A stretch of 36,485 bases of DNA, taken from NCBI GenBank assembly GCA_002256025.1, contig NKIB01015337.1:1-36485 (forward strand). Reading direction: 5' to 3'. Positions 13,667 to 35,787 of this stretch are shown here, in pieces. Made by a program: the position numbers and the translations under genes. A model generated the notes under the pieces. The model did not search any database, was not told the origin of the DNA, and was given only the letters and a program-made list of their open reading frames with translations. The DNA is from Asterionella formosa. Its lineage: Eukaryota. Every line of letters begins with the position of its first letter. Positions within the stretch are counted from its first letter, which is position 1.

Positions 13667-14560
13667 TGGTACCAGGTACAAGGAACATATATCGATAAAC
13701 CTAATGGTAATGGAATGTTCATACTACTGGTACAAACATGGATACATATCAAAAATAACCAAACATGTCTATAATGTCCGTATGTACCAGGTACCACGAC
13801 AGTGATGCATCATACATAATGCAGGGATAAATTTAACTGTATTCATATTGACATTTCGCAGTTTTTTAGGACAACAACATTTGTTCTGGAGTCGTAGTGA
13901 GGCAGAAACGAATAAAATATAACCGTACGAACTGCCGGTAGAGCCATAAATAAACCTACCGGTATCATGATTACCGGTATGACAAATACCGGTAGACTCT
14001 CGACGCACATCATAGGATCAATACACCAGTACCAGTACTACCGGTAGGTGCACCATTTTTGAAATTTCAACAAAAATGTGATTCGAGGCCACGATAAATT
14101 TTGTCAAAATTTGGTTGAAAATGCCGCCAACAACAACACCCTCATCCTGGTACTACAAGGGTACCAAACATTCAGCAGGGAGTGTGACATTGACATACCA
14201 GTATCTCAACTAATACGTATGGTGCCGGGTACCTGGTACCGTACTGGAGAACATGGTACCAGGTACCTGGTGCCTGGTACATGGTATCGATGATAATTAT
14301 CCCTTACAAACCGGTACATATCTATAAATGCTCAGCACAGGTTTTGTCATACCCGTACTCCTACCTGGTACTGGTAATGCATTTTCCGTCTGTCCTTCCC
14401 CTTTGGCTTGCCTTAGATACGACATTTTTCAGAGGTCTGATCTTTTGTGGGTGGTACGCATGTTATCTCATGTATGTATACCGGTACTAGATCTCTTCCA
14501 CAGCCAAACAACTAACTGGTACCAGGTAAAGAGGACGGAGTGTACCTTGTACCAGGTACC
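13667..14560. repeat. Dense cluster of GGTACC / TACCWGG / TACCGGTA short palindromic repeats upstream of enolase
   Basis: Examples: TGGTACCAGGTAC at 13667, several TACCGGTA at 13957-14047, GGTACCTGGTACC and GGTACCAGGTACCTGG at 14228-14280, GGTACCAGGTA and GTACCAGGTACC at 14518-14560. Confidence 0.8.
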
Positions 14561-14626
14561 GATAATATTGCATACTATATCCAAGGGTCACAACATTGTA
14601 CTTTCCAACCTTAGTTCATTTCTACC

Positions 14627-16449
14627 ATGTTGACTACCCTCGCTCGTCGTTCCGCCGCCTCTGCTGCCAGCAAGCGCTCAATGAGTGCCATTACTGGTGT
14701 CCACGGCCGAGAAATCATTGACAGCCGCGGAAACCCAACCGTTGAGGTCGACATTACCACAAAGGACGGGACTTTCACTGCGAGCGTTCCTTCAGGCGCA
14801 AGTACTGGAATTTATGAGGCCGTCGAGCTTCGCGATGGAGGCAAGCGATATATGGGAAAGGGAGTTTTGAAGGCCGTGAACAACGTGAACACAATCCTCA
14901 AGGATGCTGTTATGGGCATGGATGCTGCTGACCAGCGCGCCATTGATGAGGTCATGCTCAAGGTTGATGGAACCCCGAATAAGGGAAACCTCGGAGCCAA
15001 CGCTATTCTAGGAGGTAAGTCCGCGGCTTGCTCCTTGTCTTCAGCAACTAGTCCGAACGTACGCACCGTGGTGGACCAGCAAAATCGGGCACCAACAAGG
15101 AACATGAAATCTCTTTCAGAAATTTCGTCATCAGGCCATACATCATGAGAAATGGTGCAATTGTACCGGCGCAGTGTTCGCAATTCTCGACTTGTCGTAT
15201 AACCTACAGCAATTGATACTGCACTATAGTTGCTACTGTTTTATACAGCAAACACGACAAACAGCTGCAGTTCGGCTACGGGTTTCCACATACACACATG
15301 GTGCTTTGTGACGTATTTTCATCCCCTCACTATTTGTTTATATGTTACATTTCATTTTTCTTGCAAAACATTTTGCAGTTTCCCTTGCTGCTTCCAAGGC
15401 TGGAGCCGGTGCACGTGGAATTCCTCTCTGGAAGCACTACGCCGATATTGCAGGTAACCCCATCCCAGAGACCCTCCCCGTTCCTTGCTTCAATGTTATT
15501 AACGGTGGTGAACACGCTGGTAACAAACTCCCTTTCCAAGAGTTTTTTGTTATTCCAACCGGTGCCGCCACATTTACGTAAGTTCATCTTTTATGCGTGT
15601 TGTAAGATATGCTTTCTTTGCTTCCTCCTATCATTTGCTGATTTATTTTCGTCCTCCAGTGAGGCCATGATCATTGGGTGTGAGGTTTTCCACAATCTCA
15701 AGGGTGTCATCAAGGCCAAATTCGGCGGAGATGCTACACTTATCGGAGACGAAGGTGGCTTCGCTCCTCCCTGTGATGTTTTTTCCGGCTTGGACATGAT
15801 CATGGAGGCCACTGAGAAGGCCGGATACCTCGACAAGGTTACTGTCGGTTTGGATGTTGCGTCGTCCGAGTTCAAGGTCAAAGGAAAGGATGCTTACGAC
15901 CTTGACTTCAAGGCCCCCAAGGATGAAAAGGACCCTTCGCAGATTCTTACCGGAGACCAAATGATTGCCTTATACAAGGACCTGATTTCTAAATACCCCA
16001 TCGTTACGATTGAGGATCCTTTCGACCAGGACGATTGGGAGCACTGGACAAAGATCACTGCTGCTGTTGGTGAAGCTGTCCAGATTGTCGGAGACGACTT
16101 GACTGTTACCAATCCTATCAAGATTAGACAGGCAGTGGACCAAAAGTCTGCCAACTGCCTACTCTTGAAGGTGAACCAGATTGGATCGATCTCTGAGTCC
16201 ATTGATGCAGTCAAAATGTCCAAGCAGAACGGATGGGGTGTCATGACTTCCCACAGATCGGGAGAAACTGAGGATTTTTACATTGCTGATTTGGCCGTGG
16301 GCCTTTGCACTGGACAAATTAAGACTGGAGCTCCTTGCCGTGGTGAGCGTCTTTCCAAGTACAATCAGCTCCTTCGCATTGAGGAGCAGCTTGGAGGAAG
16401 TGCCAAGTTTGCCGGTAAGGGTTTCCGCAAGCCTGCCTGGATGGCCTAA
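14627..16449 (+). CDS. ENO: Enolase with N-terminal mitochondrial presequence, 458 aa, 3 exons: join(14627..15014,15379..15577,15660..16449)
   Basis: Motifs [32 protein letters not shown] (restored by splicing), [41 protein letters not shown] and [10 protein letters not shown]. Introns are 364 and 82 nt, GT-AG. Presequence [18 protein letters not shown] is R/S/A-rich with no acidic residues. Confidence 0.97.
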
Positions 16450-16751
16450 ACAAAAGGGCTATGTGAGCATGACTTGGAATTTTACCCTCGATTGTTTATG
16501 GAAATGTACGCCCTCTTGTTTCAATCTAGGAGTATATGAGTCCAATAAATAGAGCCAACCATTTGAGTGGATCCTCCAATGTCTGTGTCGACAGAATTAC
16601 TTCCGGAAGGCACACCTTAGTGACCTTGTAACTACAAAACTAAAATGTAGGTTCGATTATGTTAATCCTGCAAATTAGGAGACTTTAATAACACAATGTT
16701 TTCGGTTTGATTATCTCATTGGTACCGGATTAGATGTGACAATTCAATAAA

Positions 16752-16826
16752 TGGCTATACGCTGTTTCAGACGTCGGAGCTTGCGGACGACATTCTGCAT
16801 GTCCAAAGGTCGTCATTCGCGTGCCA
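16752..16826 (-). promoter_or_regulatory. Candidate SECIS element in the msrB 3' UTR
   Basis: The minus strand reads UGGCACGCGA-AUGAC-GACCUUUGGACAUGC-AGAA-UGUCGUCC-GCAAGCUCCGACGUC-UGAA-ACAGCGUAUAGCCA. Helix I is UGGC/GCCA plus ACGC/GCGU, with an AUGA...GA core. Helix II is imperfect and the apical AA lies further from the core than the canonical 11-13 nt. It begins about 40 nt after the TAG stop. Confidence 0.5.
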
Positions 16827-16867
16827 AATACCTGCCAAAAGGAACGATTCCCCTTGAATCAAGCAGG

Positions 16868-17329
16868 CTAAAAGTAATTTTCATAGTAGACAATCTTGTC
16901 TTCCTTGGTGATAGAGTCTGGCAGTGGCACATCCTTGACAAAGGTTGTGCAAATACTGTTAACTCAGTGCCGCTGTCGGGTGTCAACAGCCGACGTCTCG
17001 AATACATGGCCTAAATGAGATCCACAATTGTTGCAGCAAACTTCGTTGTGCTCCCGGACGCCAACATGGGGTCTATCATCTCCTGAGTAGAAACATTTGG
17101 AGTAGGCGTCCCACGCAGAGTCGTGAAATTTGGAAGCCGAAGAGTAGAGTGGGAACTGGCAGGCACGGCATACAAAGTATCCATCGTTAGGGAAGAAGGA
17201 ACAGAATTCGCCAACGCCAGGAGATTCGGTTCCTCCACAGCGGAGCACAATGTACTCTTCCCGTGTCAGTTGCTTGCGCCACTCTGCGTCGGTCTTCTGG
17301 AATGGGTAGGACGTGGTGCTGGTGTCCAT
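16868..17329 (-). CDS. msrB: Methionine-R-sulfoxide reductase B, selenoprotein form (153 aa; Sec at residue 122, TGA at 16964-16966)
   Basis: [23 protein letters not shown], Zn-binding CRAC and CNNC, SASKF and GSHLGHVF. The frame then reads R-H-TGA-V-N-S-I-C, matching the MsrB catalytic RxCxNS motif, and stays open for 31 more sense codons to TAG at 16868-16870. Confidence 0.92.
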
Positions 17330-17644
17330 TGTTTCGCAGCCCAAAGGTTGATGTCGCAATTTCGGAGCTCGATACTGTCAACGCACGACCAATCGCTTTC
17401 GTCGCTGTCGCTGGTTGATGCACAATGATGTGCGACTGCTGGTAATATCTAAATGACCGCGAGGAGCAGATTCACGAGTTTTTGGCCCCCCACAGCACAT
17501 TTGTGTCCGAGAATCATGGCAAATTATTTTATATCCTGAGGGCGACAGAAAATAGAACTCGGACTTCGCAAGGAATGGACCTGCGCGACATCATGGCATC
17601 ATCGTCAGGATAATTCGTCAAAAGTTGCATATTTACCGCATCTG

Positions 17645-17688
17645 TGGTACCTGGTACCTGGTTACCAGGTACCAGGTACCAGGTACCA
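17645..17688. repeat. (TACCWGG)n array containing a perfect 18-bp inverted repeat
   Basis: TGGTACCTGGTACCTGGT (17645-17662), T, ACCAGGTACCAGGTACCA (17664-17681), followed by one more unit. Confidence 0.9.
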
Positions 17689-17971
17689 TCAGGTATTAGT
17701 CTGATGCACAATCAATCTTGTGTTATTGTTACTTCGCTGTGACATTTGACAGCTGACAGCTCTACATAATAGTCAAGTTGATTCCTCTTTATTTCAATAA
17801 TTACGATAGATCATTTTAGCAGCTGCGTGTTCTCAAGTGCGAGATGCAATCATGCTAATTGCTAGCTATAGTAGTCTTAAACTTGACTTTCATTACGAGA
17901 TTGTTGTTTGTTGACTGACTATAGGCGCTCCATGGCAATATTGATCGTTTTTGCGACTGATGATGAATGAT

Positions 17972-32503: not shown

Positions 32504-32624
32504 CCAGGTACCTGGTACCTGGTACCAGTTACCGCTAATGATTAACAGGGTAACTGATACCTGGTATATACCGGCAGCTGTTACCAGGTACCAGATACCA
32601 GATACCTGGTACCAGGACCAGGTA
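32504..32624. repeat. (TACCWGG)n array upstream of the 962-aa gene
   Basis: CCAGGTACCTGGTACCTGGTACCA (32504-32527) and TACCAGGTACCAGATACCAGATACCTGGTACCAGGACCAGGTA (32582-32624). Confidence 0.85.
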
Positions 32625-32898
32625 GCGTAACATTTAACTGTGGAAGGTCCGGTAAAACGCGTTTTTACTTAGGGAAAGATATAGCTAAATCTCTCGAATA
32701 CTGGACCTTCAATGGTCGGGTTCCTATGTCTGTACCGGTCTCACAATTGTAGAGCTACAAGGAACCGTATTGCTTCTTGTTACTAATTGAACTCCACCAA
32801 CTCGCTCATACTATATATAAAAACCAAATCAAAAAAGCCTTTCCCCCTTCCAAATCGACTATTTATTGACCAACATAACATCAACCGACCGAGCGAGG

Positions 32899-35787
32899 AT
32901 GAAGTACACTGCGTTTCACGCTGACCAGTTCCGACGGGATGTCGATTTGGCATTAAAGTCCGTCCAACAGATTCTCGACACGACCCGAATACCGCGCTAC
33001 GCCCAAGACATTACGGAGCATTCGTACGACGACAAGTATGCGCTGGCGGAGTCATTGGTCAACACGGCCATTAGCGCTCACATGAATGTTCTCGAACGAA
33101 TGGGTCTCACTAAGGAAAAGCTGAAGCAATTTCAAGAACTAGTGCAGGTCGACAGGCGAACAGTGACTCTGTGCTTGGACTCTCACGATACGTGCCACTT
33201 TCTTAAGGAGCAAACTGTCGTTTCCCCGTCGTCTGGAGGAGAACGGGTTATCGAGACGTCGACGCAGTCGACAGGATTCTTTGGTGGGACGGCAGCCAGA
33301 AAAGATGAAGTCAAACTGAGCGTTAGGACTGTTGTCAAGGAGTATCATTGGAAAGTTGGCTTCAACTACAGAATTTATGCCTATGTTGGAAACGAACCAA
33401 CCAACAAACCCATCGAGCTTCAGAGCCGCTCATCTTCGTCTGTCATTATAACAAAAGGTGTAAAGGAAGCGCCTTTTCCTGAAAGAACAAATCATCCGCC
33501 AATCGCGACACTCTTGACGTGGATCCTGCAACGGATCTCCATGGACAAACTTGGGTGCACATTCAAGATAAATCGATCCAAGAACACCTGCAAGACTCCA
33601 GTTCACAATGAATGTACCAATGCGGCCATGTCCTTCTTTCATGACATGAGTAAGTGGTCTCATAAATGCTCACGACACTTCATTGATCGCATCGACTACC
33701 AAATCATGGGCAGGCACGTTCCAAGCACCACTGGAGTACCACAGGCCAAGCAGGATCTACAGTCCATCAGGAGCACTTCCATTTTCTGTCCGATTTTACC
33801 TCTAATGGAAATTCCTCGTGAAAGGGCTGGTACAGCTGTTTCTCTAGAAAATCCAAAGTCCATGTTAGTCTTGAATTCGCATGGGTTGAACGATTCGACA
33901 TCTCCTCTTTTATCAGTGAGTGACATTGACAGCCTTTTGAATGAACAGATTAGAACCTTGGATGAGCAGTTGCTATTGTTGCAATCATCTTATCCTTCCC
34001 ATCAGCTTGTGAAAATTGTGACTGTGGCGGAAGCAAGCTTAGTCGTTCTTTGGTTACATATAAGTGATCTTCTTAGGTACCTTGAAAATGGCATTGGATA
34101 CATTGAAGACATGTTGAAGAACCAGCTCATCGCAGCAATTGGGAAGGAAGTTCATCAAAAGGAATTTGATCTGTTCATGTCCTTCCATAACCAAAGATTT
34201 TTCGCAAACAAGTATGCACCGAAGCCATTTTGCTACGCCATTCGACGACCCGACCACTATCCTGATGGAATCCTCGCCATAGAGCGAACGTCTGACTCCC
34301 GAGATACTCTCGAGCCCGTTGAAACATTTGTTCAAATGATCTCAGGGAAATCTGCTCCGTCGATGTTCATTCCCATCAATGCAGCCACTTCCATTGAAAT
34401 GACTGGTCCACGCTTTCTCCACGGTTGGATACAACATAGATTTGCTTCGTCTCCCAATCCACCGCAATTCAGCTTGACGGCTCGGGCCCGTCAATTTTCT
34501 AGTTTCATGTTGATGATAGGCGTAATGGCTGGCTCGAATAAGTTTAATCCCAAGGAAGCCATCATTCTTCAAAACAAGGATGAGCTCTTGATTCCGCTTA
34601 TACTCAATGATCTGCCAACTGCCAAGGAATTCAAGGATGCAATTGCTTCGTTAAGTCCGGAGCAGAGGCGCTTCGCGATAGCCTTTCGCGGTATGCAACT
34701 GGAGTCGTCACTTTTTGGAGTGTGTGTCGTGCAGCTGAAGCCTCAATTGGAAGTGTTGCTTGGTCTTCCCGAAGATGCTTTGACCAAGGAAATTGGTTTG
34801 ACACAAGACTTGATGGCCTTGTTTGTTGATTACCAGATTCCGTCGGACTTGTTGTCTTTTGATGGCGACGAGGGTGCGACTCTAGCAGACAAAGTTGCAG
34901 TCGTCAAGAAGTATGTCAAGGGAGTGATGGATGTGATTGTTGACGCCAAAGCCAAACAACTTGAAGAAGCGAATCAAAAAGCGAAAATGAACGTTCAAAG
35001 AATTGTGGCGAATGTGAAGCAACCCCTAGGATCGTATGGCTCATCTGACTCTTTTGGAACCGGATCACCGGCTGGTAGGGATTTTGATTCGCCTGTATTG
35101 AGGATGGCATGCATGTCCGCGCCATCACATCCACGGGATGCTCCGACTCCAACGCAGCCTATGCAGCGAAAACAAAGGAGCATGAATGCTTCAGAAGGTC
35201 CTCGATCTCAACAAAGTTTGAGAAATGAGGATCCAAATGTATTCCAATCACTCCAGATATTAGAAGATTCATCGAATGCTATTGTGCAGCCACCAGCAAC
35301 CGCTGTTCCTTGCAAAGCAAGTGGTGCCCTTGACTTCACCATGATTCCAAAACAACTAGACGCCAAGTTTGATAAATACGACAATGAAAACTCGATTCGA
35401 TCCACCATAATTGAAGCTGGCAAGGCGTGGACAAGGAAGCGACAGGAGAACCTTCTGACTAAAATTTGCGAAACCTCTCTCTCCTTTGATGACACCAAGT
35501 CGGAACAGAAGAAAGCATTCGATCTCTTGGATGCTTTGAGTCGGAGTGGCACTCTCCCAATTGCATGTGCAGAACTTCATGTAGTCGTTGCGGTCACCCA
35601 TTGCTTTGAAAATGATGTCATGGGTACCGTGATTCAAGACAATTTAAACCCTATTGAAAAGGTTGAAAAGTCATCACTGCTGGTTGCTTCTACTATTTAT
35701 GGTAGCAACACTGCAGAATTGATCAATACCCAATCCGACAGTACCAGGTTGAGCATATCCTTCCCTGAGTTGTTTGTATCCGAATGA
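32899..35787 (+). CDS. Uncharacterised 962-aa protein (resembles a conserved protist family of unknown function)
   Basis: Uninterrupted ORF with first ATG at 32899 (the track start is TTG). Globular composition, with blocks such as PFCYAIRRPDHYPDG, LTARARQFSSF, ILQNKDEL, LSPEQRRFAIAFRGMQLES, YQIPSDLLSF and AFDLLDALSRSG. Function not recognised. Confidence 0.88.
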   Translation: MKYTAFHADQFRRDVDLALKSVQQILDTTRIPRYAQDITEHSYDDKYALAESLVNTAISAHMNVLERMGLTKEKLKQFQELVQVDRRTVTLCLDSHDTCHFLKEQTVVSPSSGGERVIETSTQSTGFFGGTAARKDEVKLSVRTVVKEYHWKVGFNYRIYAYVGNEPTNKPIELQSRSSSSVIITKGVKEAPFPERTNHPPIATLLTWILQRISMDKLGCTFKINRSKNTCKTPVHNECTNAAMSFFHDMSKWSHKCSRHFIDRIDYQIMGRHVPSTTGVPQAKQDLQSIRSTSIFCPILPLMEIPRERAGTAVSLENPKSMLVLNSHGLNDSTSPLLSVSDIDSLLNEQIRTLDEQLLLLQSSYPSHQLVKIVTVAEASLVVLWLHISDLLRYLENGIGYIEDMLKNQLIAAIGKEVHQKEFDLFMSFHNQRFFANKYAPKPFCYAIRRPDHYPDGILAIERTSDSRDTLEPVETFVQMISGKSAPSMFIPINAATSIEMTGPRFLHGWIQHRFASSPNPPQFSLTARARQFSSFMLMIGVMAGSNKFNPKEAIILQNKDELLIPLILNDLPTAKEFKDAIASLSPEQRRFAIAFRGMQLESSLFGVCVVQLKPQLEVLLGLPEDALTKEIGLTQDLMALFVDYQIPSDLLSFDGDEGATLADKVAVVKKYVKGVMDVIVDAKAKQLEEANQKAKMNVQRIVANVKQPLGSYGSSDSFGTGSPAGRDFDSPVLRMACMSAPSHPRDAPTPTQPMQRKQRSMNASEGPRSQQSLRNEDPNVFQSLQILEDSSNAIVQPPATAVPCKASGALDFTMIPKQLDAKFDKYDNENSIRSTIIEAGKAWTRKRQENLLTKICETSLSFDDTKSEQKKAFDLLDALSRSGTLPIACAELHVVVAVTHCFENDVMGTVIQDNLNPIEKVEKSSLLVASTIYGSNTAELINTQSDSTRLSISFPELFVSE

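What the first reader, a model, noticed from the sequence alone, without database searches (positions are those of the whole stretch)
16868..17329. Hidden selenoprotein: MsrB with in-frame UGA at the catalytic residue
Seen: the ORF track stops at ...TRQRH*, but the DNA continues TGA GTT AAC AGT ATT TGC (U-V-N-S-I-C) in frame to a TAG 32 codons later. Established: the MsrB catalytic motif is Rx-C-x-NS, Sec replaces this Cys in animal MsrB1/SelR, and algae including diatoms have selenoproteomes. Inference: this is a 153-aa Zn-containing Sec-MsrB that gene callers would truncate or mis-splice. The usual resolving-Cys motif (GxGWP) reads DSAWD, and a Cys lies five residues after Sec, so its recycling may be atypical.
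Basis: partly seen in the sequence, partly recalled or inferred. Interest (0 to 1): 0.85.

Follow-up and report, generated by a model that had tools for sequence, protein, structure and literature searches.

The report
Selenocysteine MsrB gene in a diatom
This is a methionine-sulfoxide repair enzyme gene whose catalytic residue is encoded by a UGA "stop" codon read as selenocysteine, a known kind of gene that public annotations of related diatoms routinely cut short.

Summary
On the minus strand, ATG 17329 to TAG 16868 gives 153 codons of an MsrB (Pfam SelR, E 1.2e-22). An in-frame TGA (16966-16964) sits at the catalytic Cys column.

- **Homologs:** in an alignment of 109, 43 end exactly before this column, 4 read W there and continue with a conserved tail, and 62 carry Cys. 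The TGA forms fall in one strongly supported clade that includes named diatoms.
- **RNA:** contigs from four studies keep the TGA, colinear and unspliced.
- **Genetic code:** TGA ends neighbouring genes, so the code is not reassigned.
- **SECIS (the RNA signal for Sec insertion):** only a hand-found candidate in the 3'UTR (16832-16746). Its core fits the published consensus, but Rfam does not detect it and chance would give one in roughly 4-9% of such regions.
- **Sec machinery:** could not be checked, because no genome is held.
- **Recycling:** TGA forms lack the canonical resolving Cys. They always carry Cys at column 43 (47 of 47, against 0 of 62 Cys forms) and at Sec+5 (4 of 4, against 1 of 62). 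They keep the His/Val/Asn active site that vertebrate MsrB1 lost.

Sec-MsrB is already listed among algal selenoprotein families, so this is a new member of a known kind.

The parts
16868..17329 (-). Single-exon coding sequence of a 153-residue MsrB (SelR domain), stop codon TAG 16870-16868 included
   Evidence: Translation. Pfam PF01641, E 1.2e-22, residues 21-131. AF2 pLDDT 93.2 and MsrB fold matches. No joints in RNA contigs.
16964..16966 (-). In-frame TGA, codon 122, at the catalytic Cys column: proposed Sec codon
   Evidence: In alignment A2 this column is Cys in 62, W in 4 and absent because the protein ends in 43 of 109 homologs. Unchanged in RNA contigs of X1, X5, X6 and X8.
16871..16963 (-). 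31 codons downstream of the TGA (VNSIC... tail), needed to complete the MsrB fold
   Evidence: The tail alone matches P0001 (E 1e-10) and P0060 (E 0.003). Model pLDDT is 98/95/88 for residue blocks 121-150. In the diverged X8 contig, 2 synonymous changes and 1 non-synonymous change (Y152N).
17201..17203 (-). Cys43 codon (TGT): Cys present only in TGA forms, candidate resolving Cys
   Evidence: Cys in 47 of 47 TGA forms against 0 of 62 Cys forms in A2. It lies 4 residues after the column aligned with the FCG Cys of X. campestris MsrB 3hcj.
16949..16951 (-). Cys127 codon (TGC), five residues after Sec: second Cys specific to TGA forms
   Evidence: Cys in 4 of 4 W-read forms of A2 and in P0272, against 1 of 62 Cys forms (55 Ser, 6 Ala).
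17024..17170 (-). Span holding the two CxxC pairs (C54, C57, C99, C102), the structural zinc site
   Evidence: All four are invariant in 110 sequences.
16746..16832 (-). Candidate SECIS stem-loop in the 3'UTR: helix I 16832-16819 / 16762-16746, core AUGA 16816-16813 with UGAA 16769-16766, helix II 16811-16794 / 16787-16770
   Evidence: Script searches and constrained fold, -23.6 kcal/mol against an unconstrained MFE of -23.7. The core fits UGAN/KGAW (PMC3753652). No differences from 16714 to 16836 in the diverged contigs X1 and X8. Weak points: no Rfam match, 26 of 300 shuffles do as well, fold z-score -0.89.
16681..17491 (-). Stretch covered colinearly by RNA-library contigs (approximate transcript extent)
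   Evidence: X5 polyA contig 16681-17311, with 0 differences and 0 gaps. X8 and X6 contigs reach 17491 and 17489. Contigs cannot fix the true ends or the strand.

Best explanation
This is a single-exon nuclear gene of a diatom-like alga. It encodes a cytosolic, zinc-containing methionine-R-sulfoxide reductase (MsrB) whose catalytic residue is selenocysteine, inserted at UGA codon 122.

**Shown:**
- The TGA is real, is kept in RNA, and sits at the catalytic Cys column.
- The same column is a stop or TGA in a whole clade of diatom homologs.
- The tail after it is conserved.

**Inferred:**
- Decoding as Sec uses a 3'UTR SECIS. The best candidate is at 16832-16746, and I give it about 0.55 odds of being the true element.
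- After the selenol attacks the sulfoxide, a selenenic acid is resolved as a selenenylsulfide by one of two Cys found only in the TGA forms (Cys43 or Cys127). Thioredoxin then reduces that bond.

Unlike vertebrate MsrB1, the enzyme keeps the His/Val/Asn active-site residues of Cys-type MsrBs. It therefore resembles the engineered Sec-MsrB2/3 with an added resolving Cys.
For: **The gene and the column**
- TGA in frame; Pfam SelR match spans it.
- Among the 120 best homologs, 4 read W at the column, 33 end exactly before it, and most of 16 further rows that the local alignment did not carry to the column also end in ...ERQ/...ERH; 67 have Cys.
- Alignment A2 has 109 homologs; 17 of the 120 were dropped and 6 added. 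It gives 43 stop, 4 W and 62 Cys.
- P0007 (W-read) and P0026 (ends at the column) are identical over residues 9-121. One gene is therefore read both ways, which points to TGA.
- Transcriptome-derived ORFs marked complete (MMETSP) also stop there.

**Clade**
- A quick tree puts all 48 TGA forms and 2 Cys forms in one clade with SH-aLRT 100.
- Named members are diatoms: Seminavis, Trieres and Cylindrotheca.

**RNA**
- The X5 polyA contig covers 16681-17311 with 0 differences.
- X6 and the roughly 3% diverged X8 also keep the TGA, and no joints are seen.
- X8 changes in the coding sequence are 6 synonymous and 1 non-synonymous.

**Code and structure**
- TGA ends the Tub-domain, acetyl-CoA synthetase and other ORFs in the window.
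- The fold is confident through the tail.

**Literature**
- Diatoms hold 20-44 selenoprotein genes and MSRB is an algal selenoprotein family (PMC7539508).
- tRNA-Sec was sequenced in Thalassiosira (PMC2375036).

**Recycling**
- Census of the Cys columns.
- Sec forms of MsrB2/3 need a resolving Cys for thioredoxin (PMC1278935, abstract and sections 6 and 14).
Against: - No SECIS was found by Rfam at gathering score in the window, at E<=10 in 16300-17000, or at E<=10 in 16740-16840.
- The hand-found candidate is matched by 26 of 300 shuffles under a loose core rule. Like candidates occur about once per 4,300 nt in the window (16 in 72,970 nt).
- Its conserved AA lies 18 nt after the core, or only a single unpaired A lies at 13 nt. 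By my recollection of the usual spacing this is atypical.
- No genome is held, so tRNA-Sec, SBP2, eEFSec, PSTK, SepSecS and SPS2 were not sought.
- The W residues are taken to be TGA without seeing the DNA.
- RNA evidence is from contigs, which may include DNA and show no strand.
- No coordinates of the model were available, so the distances from Sec to Cys43 and Cys127 are unknown.
- One Cys form has Cys at column 43 (P0170), and 12 further representatives seem to stop at the column without Cys43.
Confidence: 0.85

Rival explanations
1. The TGA is a true terminator. The gene makes a 121-residue MsrB stump without its catalytic residue, either a decaying gene or a non-catalytic zinc-binding protein, and the open frame behind it is a remnant.
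For: No validated SECIS. Public gene models and transcript ORFs end there. TGA is an ordinary stop in this genome.
Against: A stop at one exact column is kept across 47 homologs from pennate and centric diatoms while the tail stays conserved. In the diverged X8 contig the tail carries 2 synonymous changes against 1 non-synonymous. The column is the catalytic Cys in 62 relatives. Two Cys columns co-vary with the TGA, including one behind it.
Confidence: 0.05
2. The UGA is read through as a standard amino acid (Trp, Cys or Arg by near-cognate tRNA, or a local recoding signal) without selenium.
For: The frame and tail are conserved, which any read-through would explain. No Sec machinery was shown for this genome.
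Against: Only Cys or Sec would give an active enzyme at this column. Cys is cheaply encoded by TGC/TGT, yet the clade keeps TGA. Diatoms are documented Sec users (PMC2375036 and PMC7539508). The gain of extra Cys together with TGA fits the resolving-Cys need reported for Sec-MsrBs (PMC1278935).
Confidence: 0.05
3. Artefact: an assembly or sequencing error turned TGC/TGT into TGA, or an unrecognised intron removes the codon.
For: None was found.
Against: Contigs from four RNA libraries of four studies carry TGA. These include one identical 631-nt polyA contig and one about 3% diverged strain. No joints were seen. Homologs share the feature.
Confidence: 0.01

Closest known systems
Algal Sec-containing MSRB as catalogued in 'The algal selenoproteomes' (Jiang et al. 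2020, PMC7539508)
   Same: An MsrB with Sec at the catalytic position in an alga. The paper counts MSRB among 42 algal selenoprotein families and reports 20-44 selenoprotein genes per diatom (passages and section 5 read).
   Different: The main text says MsrB is Cys or other in nearly 90% of the 36 algal genomes. It does not say which species hold the Sec form. That is in figures and supplements I could not see (supplements closed). I found no text on resolving Cys or SECIS type for this family.
Vertebrate MsrB1 (SelR/SELENOR)
   Same: A zinc-containing MsrB fold with Sec at the catalytic column, and a need for a resolving Cys to use thioredoxin (PMC1278935). Human and mouse MsrB1 structures 3mao and 2kv1 are sequence hits.
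   Different: MsrB1 has Gly77/Glu81/Phe97 and an N-terminal resolving Cys4. This protein keeps His105, Val109 and Asn124 as in Cys-type MsrBs and has no Cys in its first 30 residues. It sits in a separate clade with Cys-type relatives. The two are probably independent Cys/Sec exchanges.
Engineered Sec forms of mammalian MsrB2/MsrB3 with an inserted resolving Cys (Kim and Gladyshev 2005, PMC1278935)
   Same: A Cys-type active site (His/Val/Asn) combined with catalytic Sec. The paper found more than 100-fold higher activity, but thioredoxin dependence only after a resolving Cys was added (abstract).
   Different: Those are laboratory constructs with the Cys placed as in MsrB1. Here nature supplies Cys at column 43 and at Sec+5, and their role is untested.
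Xanthomonas campestris MsrB (PDB 3hcj/3hci), with a Cys in the N-terminal loop
   Same: It lacks the GCGWP Cys and carries a Cys in the loop after GTE. From my recollection of Ranaivoson et al. 2009, not read here, that Cys31 is the recycling Cys.
   Different: Its Cys aligns with column 39, four residues before Cys43, and its catalytic residue is Cys, not Sec.
Corynebacterium diphtheriae MsrB (PDB 6tr8)
   Same: The best PDB sequence hit (E 5e-23). It also has a Cys five residues after the catalytic residue, RYCINSVC.
   Different: It has catalytic Cys and keeps the canonical HCGWP resolving Cys. It is bacterial.

Membership tests
MsrB / SelR domain (PF01641) | Significant match to the family profile over the whole domain | tested here: met
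   E 1.2e-22, 80.4 bits against a cut-off of 24.9, residues 21-131 on profile positions 1-115 of 116.
MsrB / SelR domain (PF01641) | MsrB fold | tested here: met
   AF2 pLDDT 93.2, pTM 0.88. Foldseek top hits are 3cez, 6qa0/6q9v (MSRB3) and 6sym, probability 1.00.
MsrB / SelR domain (PF01641) | Catalytic Cys/Sec in R-x-[C/U]-x-N-S, with the HxGHVF histidines | tested here: met
   R120-H-U122-V-N124-S125. H105 and H108 are invariant and R120 is invariant in A2.
Zinc-containing MsrB subtype | Two CxxC pairs | tested here: met
   C54, C57, C99 and C102 are invariant in 110 sequences. Metal binding itself was not tested.
Eukaryotic selenoprotein gene | In-frame TGA aligned with Cys in homologs | tested here: met
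   62 Cys, 4 W-read and 43 ending at the column, of 109 homologs.
Eukaryotic selenoprotein gene | Coding conservation downstream of the TGA | tested here: met
   Tail-only BLASTP E 1e-10 to P0001 and 0.003 to P0060. Confident fold of the tail.
Eukaryotic selenoprotein gene | TGA present in mature RNA | tested here: met
   Colinear RNA-library contigs in 4 runs of 4 studies, including a polyA library. The caveat is that these are contigs, not raw reads.
Eukaryotic selenoprotein gene | SECIS element in the 3'UTR (core UGAN/KGAW, helix II, unpaired A's) | tested here: inconclusive
   The candidate at 16832-16746 has a fitting core and two helices. There is no Rfam hit and the chance rate is about 4-9%.
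Eukaryotic selenoprotein gene | Sec machinery in the same genome (tRNA-Sec, SBP2, eEFSec, PSTK, SepSecS, SPS2) | not testable with these tools
   No genome is held for the window. Only literature for other diatoms is available.
Eukaryotic selenoprotein gene | Selenium in the protein | not testable with these tools
   Needs 75Se labelling or mass spectrometry.
Vertebrate MsrB1 (SELENOR) subtype | Gly/Glu/Phe in place of the His/Val/Asn of Cys-type MsrBs | tested here: not met
   H105, V109 and N124 are retained. The definition comes from PMC1278935, section 6.
Vertebrate MsrB1 (SELENOR) subtype | N-terminal resolving Cys (Cys4) | tested here: not met
   The first Cys is C31, and that column is Cys in only 3 of 47 TGA forms.
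Canonical 2-Cys MsrB | Resolving Cys in the GCGWP motif | tested here: not met
   The motif reads DS-AWD. In TGA forms it is GWDAY without that Cys, and only 1 of 43 has Cys at the neighbouring column 71.

The most novel reading that the evidence does not exclude
Diatom Sec-MsrBs form a distinct, independently evolved class of selenoprotein MsrB. They keep the full Cys-type active site (His/Val/Asn) and have lost the canonical resolving Cys. Together with Sec they gained two new Cys, at column 43 and at Sec+5, one of which forms the selenenylsulfide. They are decoded through a SECIS that current covariance models do not recognise. [quoted passage not shown]
Probability: 0.4. Interest if true: 0.5.

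Novelty: new member of a known kind. Interest (0 to 1): 0.35.

Why it matters
- **Annotation:** dozens of database entries for this clade, including NCBI models of Seminavis robusta, end one codon before the catalytic residue. Diatom MsrB activity and selenium demand are therefore under-counted.
- **Mechanism:** the strict co-occurrence of TGA with two extra Cys and the loss of the usual resolving Cys gives a simple mutational test of how a Sec-type MsrB with a Cys-type active site is recycled by thioredoxin.
- **Expectation:** it does not change what is expected of diatoms, which are known to have large selenoproteomes.

Tried and rejected
- **Rfam for a SECIS:** nothing in the whole window at gathering score or at E<=10 in 16300-17000. 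At E<=10 in 16740-16840 there were only three chance-level hits to unrelated families.
- **Metagenome scan for homolog DNA:** the back-translated patterns caught generic, mostly bacterial-type MsrBs at 43% identity or less, and none of the diatom clade.
- **Whole genome:** none is held, so there was no search for the Sec machinery.
- **Earlier findings of the scan:** nothing by place, sequence or words.
- **Supplements of PMC7539508:** these would say which algae carry Sec-MSRB, but they were closed.
- **Model coordinates:** not available in the script box, so Sec-Cys distances were not measured.
- **Second ATGA at 16719-16716:** rejected by eye as a SECIS core because no matching 3' GA follows.
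- **P0081 and P0082:** these read C at the column followed by unrelated AT-rich tails. I left them out as unexplained.
- **Careful tree:** it did not finish, so only the quick tree was used.
- **Literature on recycling of algal Sec-MsrBs:** searches returned no paper on it within that library.

Full report
**Observation.** The feature is on the minus strand. Reading from ATG 17329-17327, the frame runs 121 codons to TGA 16966-16964. It then continues V-N-S-I-C and on for 31 sense codons to TAG 16870-16868, 153 codons in all. An in-frame stop precedes the ATG at 17380-17378. With the TGA read through, Pfam SelR (PF01641) matches residues 21-131 at E 1.2e-22, so the match runs across the TGA.

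**Is the TGA conserved and is the tail coding?**
- A search of 5.8 billion proteins gave 1,242 hits. Among the best 120, 4 read W at the TGA column and continue W-[VI]-N-S-[IV]-C.
- Another 33 end exactly at the preceding residue. Most of 16 further rows that my local alignment did not carry to the column also end in ...ERQ or ...ERH. The remaining 67 carry Cys.
- I then aligned 109 homologs (A2). From the 120 I dropped 17 rows: fragments, near-duplicates, three further forms that end at the column, and the odd P0081 and P0082. I added 6 rows from the tail search.
- That census gives 43 that stop at the column, 4 that read W, and 62 that read Cys.
- P0007 (W-read) and P0026 (ends at the column) are identical over residues 9-121. 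The same gene is thus read both ways by different callers, which is what a TGA codon would produce. I did not see their DNA.
- ORFs from transcriptome assemblies marked complete stop at the same column.
- The 31-residue tail alone matches the tail of P0001 (19 of 26 identical, E 1e-10) and of the Cys form of a brown alga (E 0.003).
- The AF2 model is confident through the tail: mean pLDDT 93.2, and 98, 95 and 88 for the residue blocks 121-150. Its best structural matches are MsrBs.

**Who has it.**
- A quick maximum-likelihood tree on residues 9-121, with the catalytic column excluded, puts all 48 TGA forms and two Cys forms (P0047, P0049) in one clade with SH-aLRT 100. A long branch separates it from 60 Cys forms. 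The careful search did not finish.
- Named members are diatoms: Seminavis robusta, Trieres chinensis and Cylindrotheca closterium.
- The two S. robusta NCBI models are 123 residues long and end at the column.
- An exhaustive HMMER search added one more W-read form (P0272, also with Cys at +5). It also found 12 representatives outside this clade that seem to stop at the column, by a heuristic rule. Sec-MsrBs may therefore be wider than diatoms.

**RNA.**
- Runs that hold the stretch are lake and freshwater metatranscriptomes and one polyA library.
- Laid on 16300-17700, the polyA run X5 has a 631-nt contig over 16681-17311 with no difference and no gap. X6 covers 16582-17086 in two contigs. X8, about 3% diverged, covers 16783-17107.
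- X1 spans the whole stretch in one contig. None changes 16966-16964 and no joint was reported.
- The X8 differences in the coding sequence are 6 synonymous and 1 non-synonymous (Y152N). Of these, 2 synonymous and the 1 non-synonymous lie after the TGA. X1 has V53A and Y81F.
- These are contigs, so they cannot show strand, ends or level, and RNA libraries may hold DNA.

**Not a code change.** ORFs in the window with Tub and acetyl-CoA synthetase domains, and others, end in TGA. Enolase ends in TAA.

**SECIS.**
- Rfam found no SECIS at any setting.
- A script found one candidate in the 418-nt stretch between the TAG and the convergent enolase gene: AUGA at 16816-16813 and UGAA at 16769-16766, enclosing 44 nt that fold at -10.9 kcal/mol. 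This core fits the published UGAN/KGAW (PMC3753652, passage read).
- With the core held unpaired, the region folds into a 12-bp basal helix, an internal loop and a helix II of about 14 bp at -23.6 kcal/mol. This equals the free MFE of -23.7.
- It starts 51 nt after the stop and lies within the polyA contig.
- Neither X1 nor X8 differs anywhere in 16714-16836, while both differ just outside, at 16837, 16846, 16855, and at 16713 and below.
- Against it: 26 of 300 dinucleotide shuffles give an equal candidate under a loose core rule. The strict rule finds 16 such candidates in 72,970 nt of the window, about 1 per 4,300 nt. The overall fold is not unusual, with a z-score of -0.89.
- The unpaired A's are not where I recall them in typical elements.
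- I rate it about 0.55 as the true SECIS.

**Mechanism.**
- The four zinc Cys, both active-site His and Arg120 are invariant.
- The canonical resolving Cys of GCGWP is absent from the TGA forms (GWDAY).
- Column 43 is Cys in 47 of 47 TGA forms and in 0 of 62 Cys forms. Column 127 (Sec+5) is Cys in 4 of 4 W-read forms and in 1 of 62 Cys forms. Column 98 is Cys in 40 of 47 against 2 of 62.
- Among 142 further representatives, one Cys form has Cys43.
- The two Cys-type sisters inside the clade (P0047, P0049) instead carry Cys at column 71 next to GWD, Val at column 43 and Ser at +5.
- Kim and Gladyshev (PMC1278935; abstract and sections 6 and 14 read) showed that vertebrate MsrB1 replaced His/Val/Asn by Gly/Glu/Phe and uses a unique resolving Cys.
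- This protein keeps His105, Val109 and Asn124. It is therefore not of the MsrB1 subtype, and it looks like a natural form of that engineered design.
- Cys43 lies four residues after the column that aligns with the loop Cys of X. campestris MsrB (3hcj). The best PDB hit, C. diphtheriae MsrB (6tr8), also has Cys at +5.
- Which Cys resolves the selenenic acid is inference, because I could not obtain model coordinates.

**Known or new.**
- Lobanov et al. 2007 (PMC2375036, passages read) listed 16 Thalassiosira selenoproteins without MsrB and called Sec-MsrB animal-specific.
- Jiang et al. 2020 (PMC7539508, passages and section 5 read) list MSRB among 42 algal selenoprotein families, Sec in roughly a tenth of 36 genomes.
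- The gene is therefore a new member of a known kind.
- The Cys covariation and the retained Cys-type active site were not found in print in the searches.

**Verdict.** A genuine Sec-MsrB gene (confidence 0.85). The SECIS and the Sec machinery are unproven here. Interest is modest.

Noticed in passing
window 14221-14281, 17646-17688, 32507-32606: A partly palindromic heptamer array (GGTACCW)n occurs three times, each in an intergenic stretch 5' of a gene: enolase, this MsrB, and the ORF 32821-35787. There are 14 matches to a 20-mer at up to 2 mismatches, against 0 in 100 shuffles. TRF gives period 7 and 6 copies. Many unrelated RNA contigs of X8 touch 17645-17695 with loose ends, so it is a dispersed repeat, perhaps promoter-associated.
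   Followed up: partly
window 16450-16720: The convergent enolase gene (stop TAA 16447-16449) has very high contig depth in the polyA run up to about 16720, while the MsrB contig reaches down to 16681. The two 3'UTRs may therefore overlap on opposite strands by some tens of bases. Contigs cannot prove this.
   Followed up: no
proteins P0081, P0082 (homolog search): Two ENA proteins of the TGA clade read C at the Sec column and then continue with unrelated AT-rich sequence. Possible causes are a caller using a code with TGA=Cys or an intron right after the codon. This is unexplained.
   Followed up: no
proteins P0173, P0204, P0224, P0225, P0229, P0242, P0253, P0266, P0276, P0284, P0298, P0162: Representatives outside or at the edge of the diatom clade, mostly with GWP-type motifs and without Cys43, also appear to end at ...ERH just before the catalytic column. 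This hints at further truncated Sec-MsrBs in other lineages with other recycling arrangements.
   Followed up: no
window 14615-16449: Enolase is split into at least two exons (Enolase_N in 14615-15145, Enolase_C in 15217-16446), whereas MsrB is a single exon.
   Followed up: no
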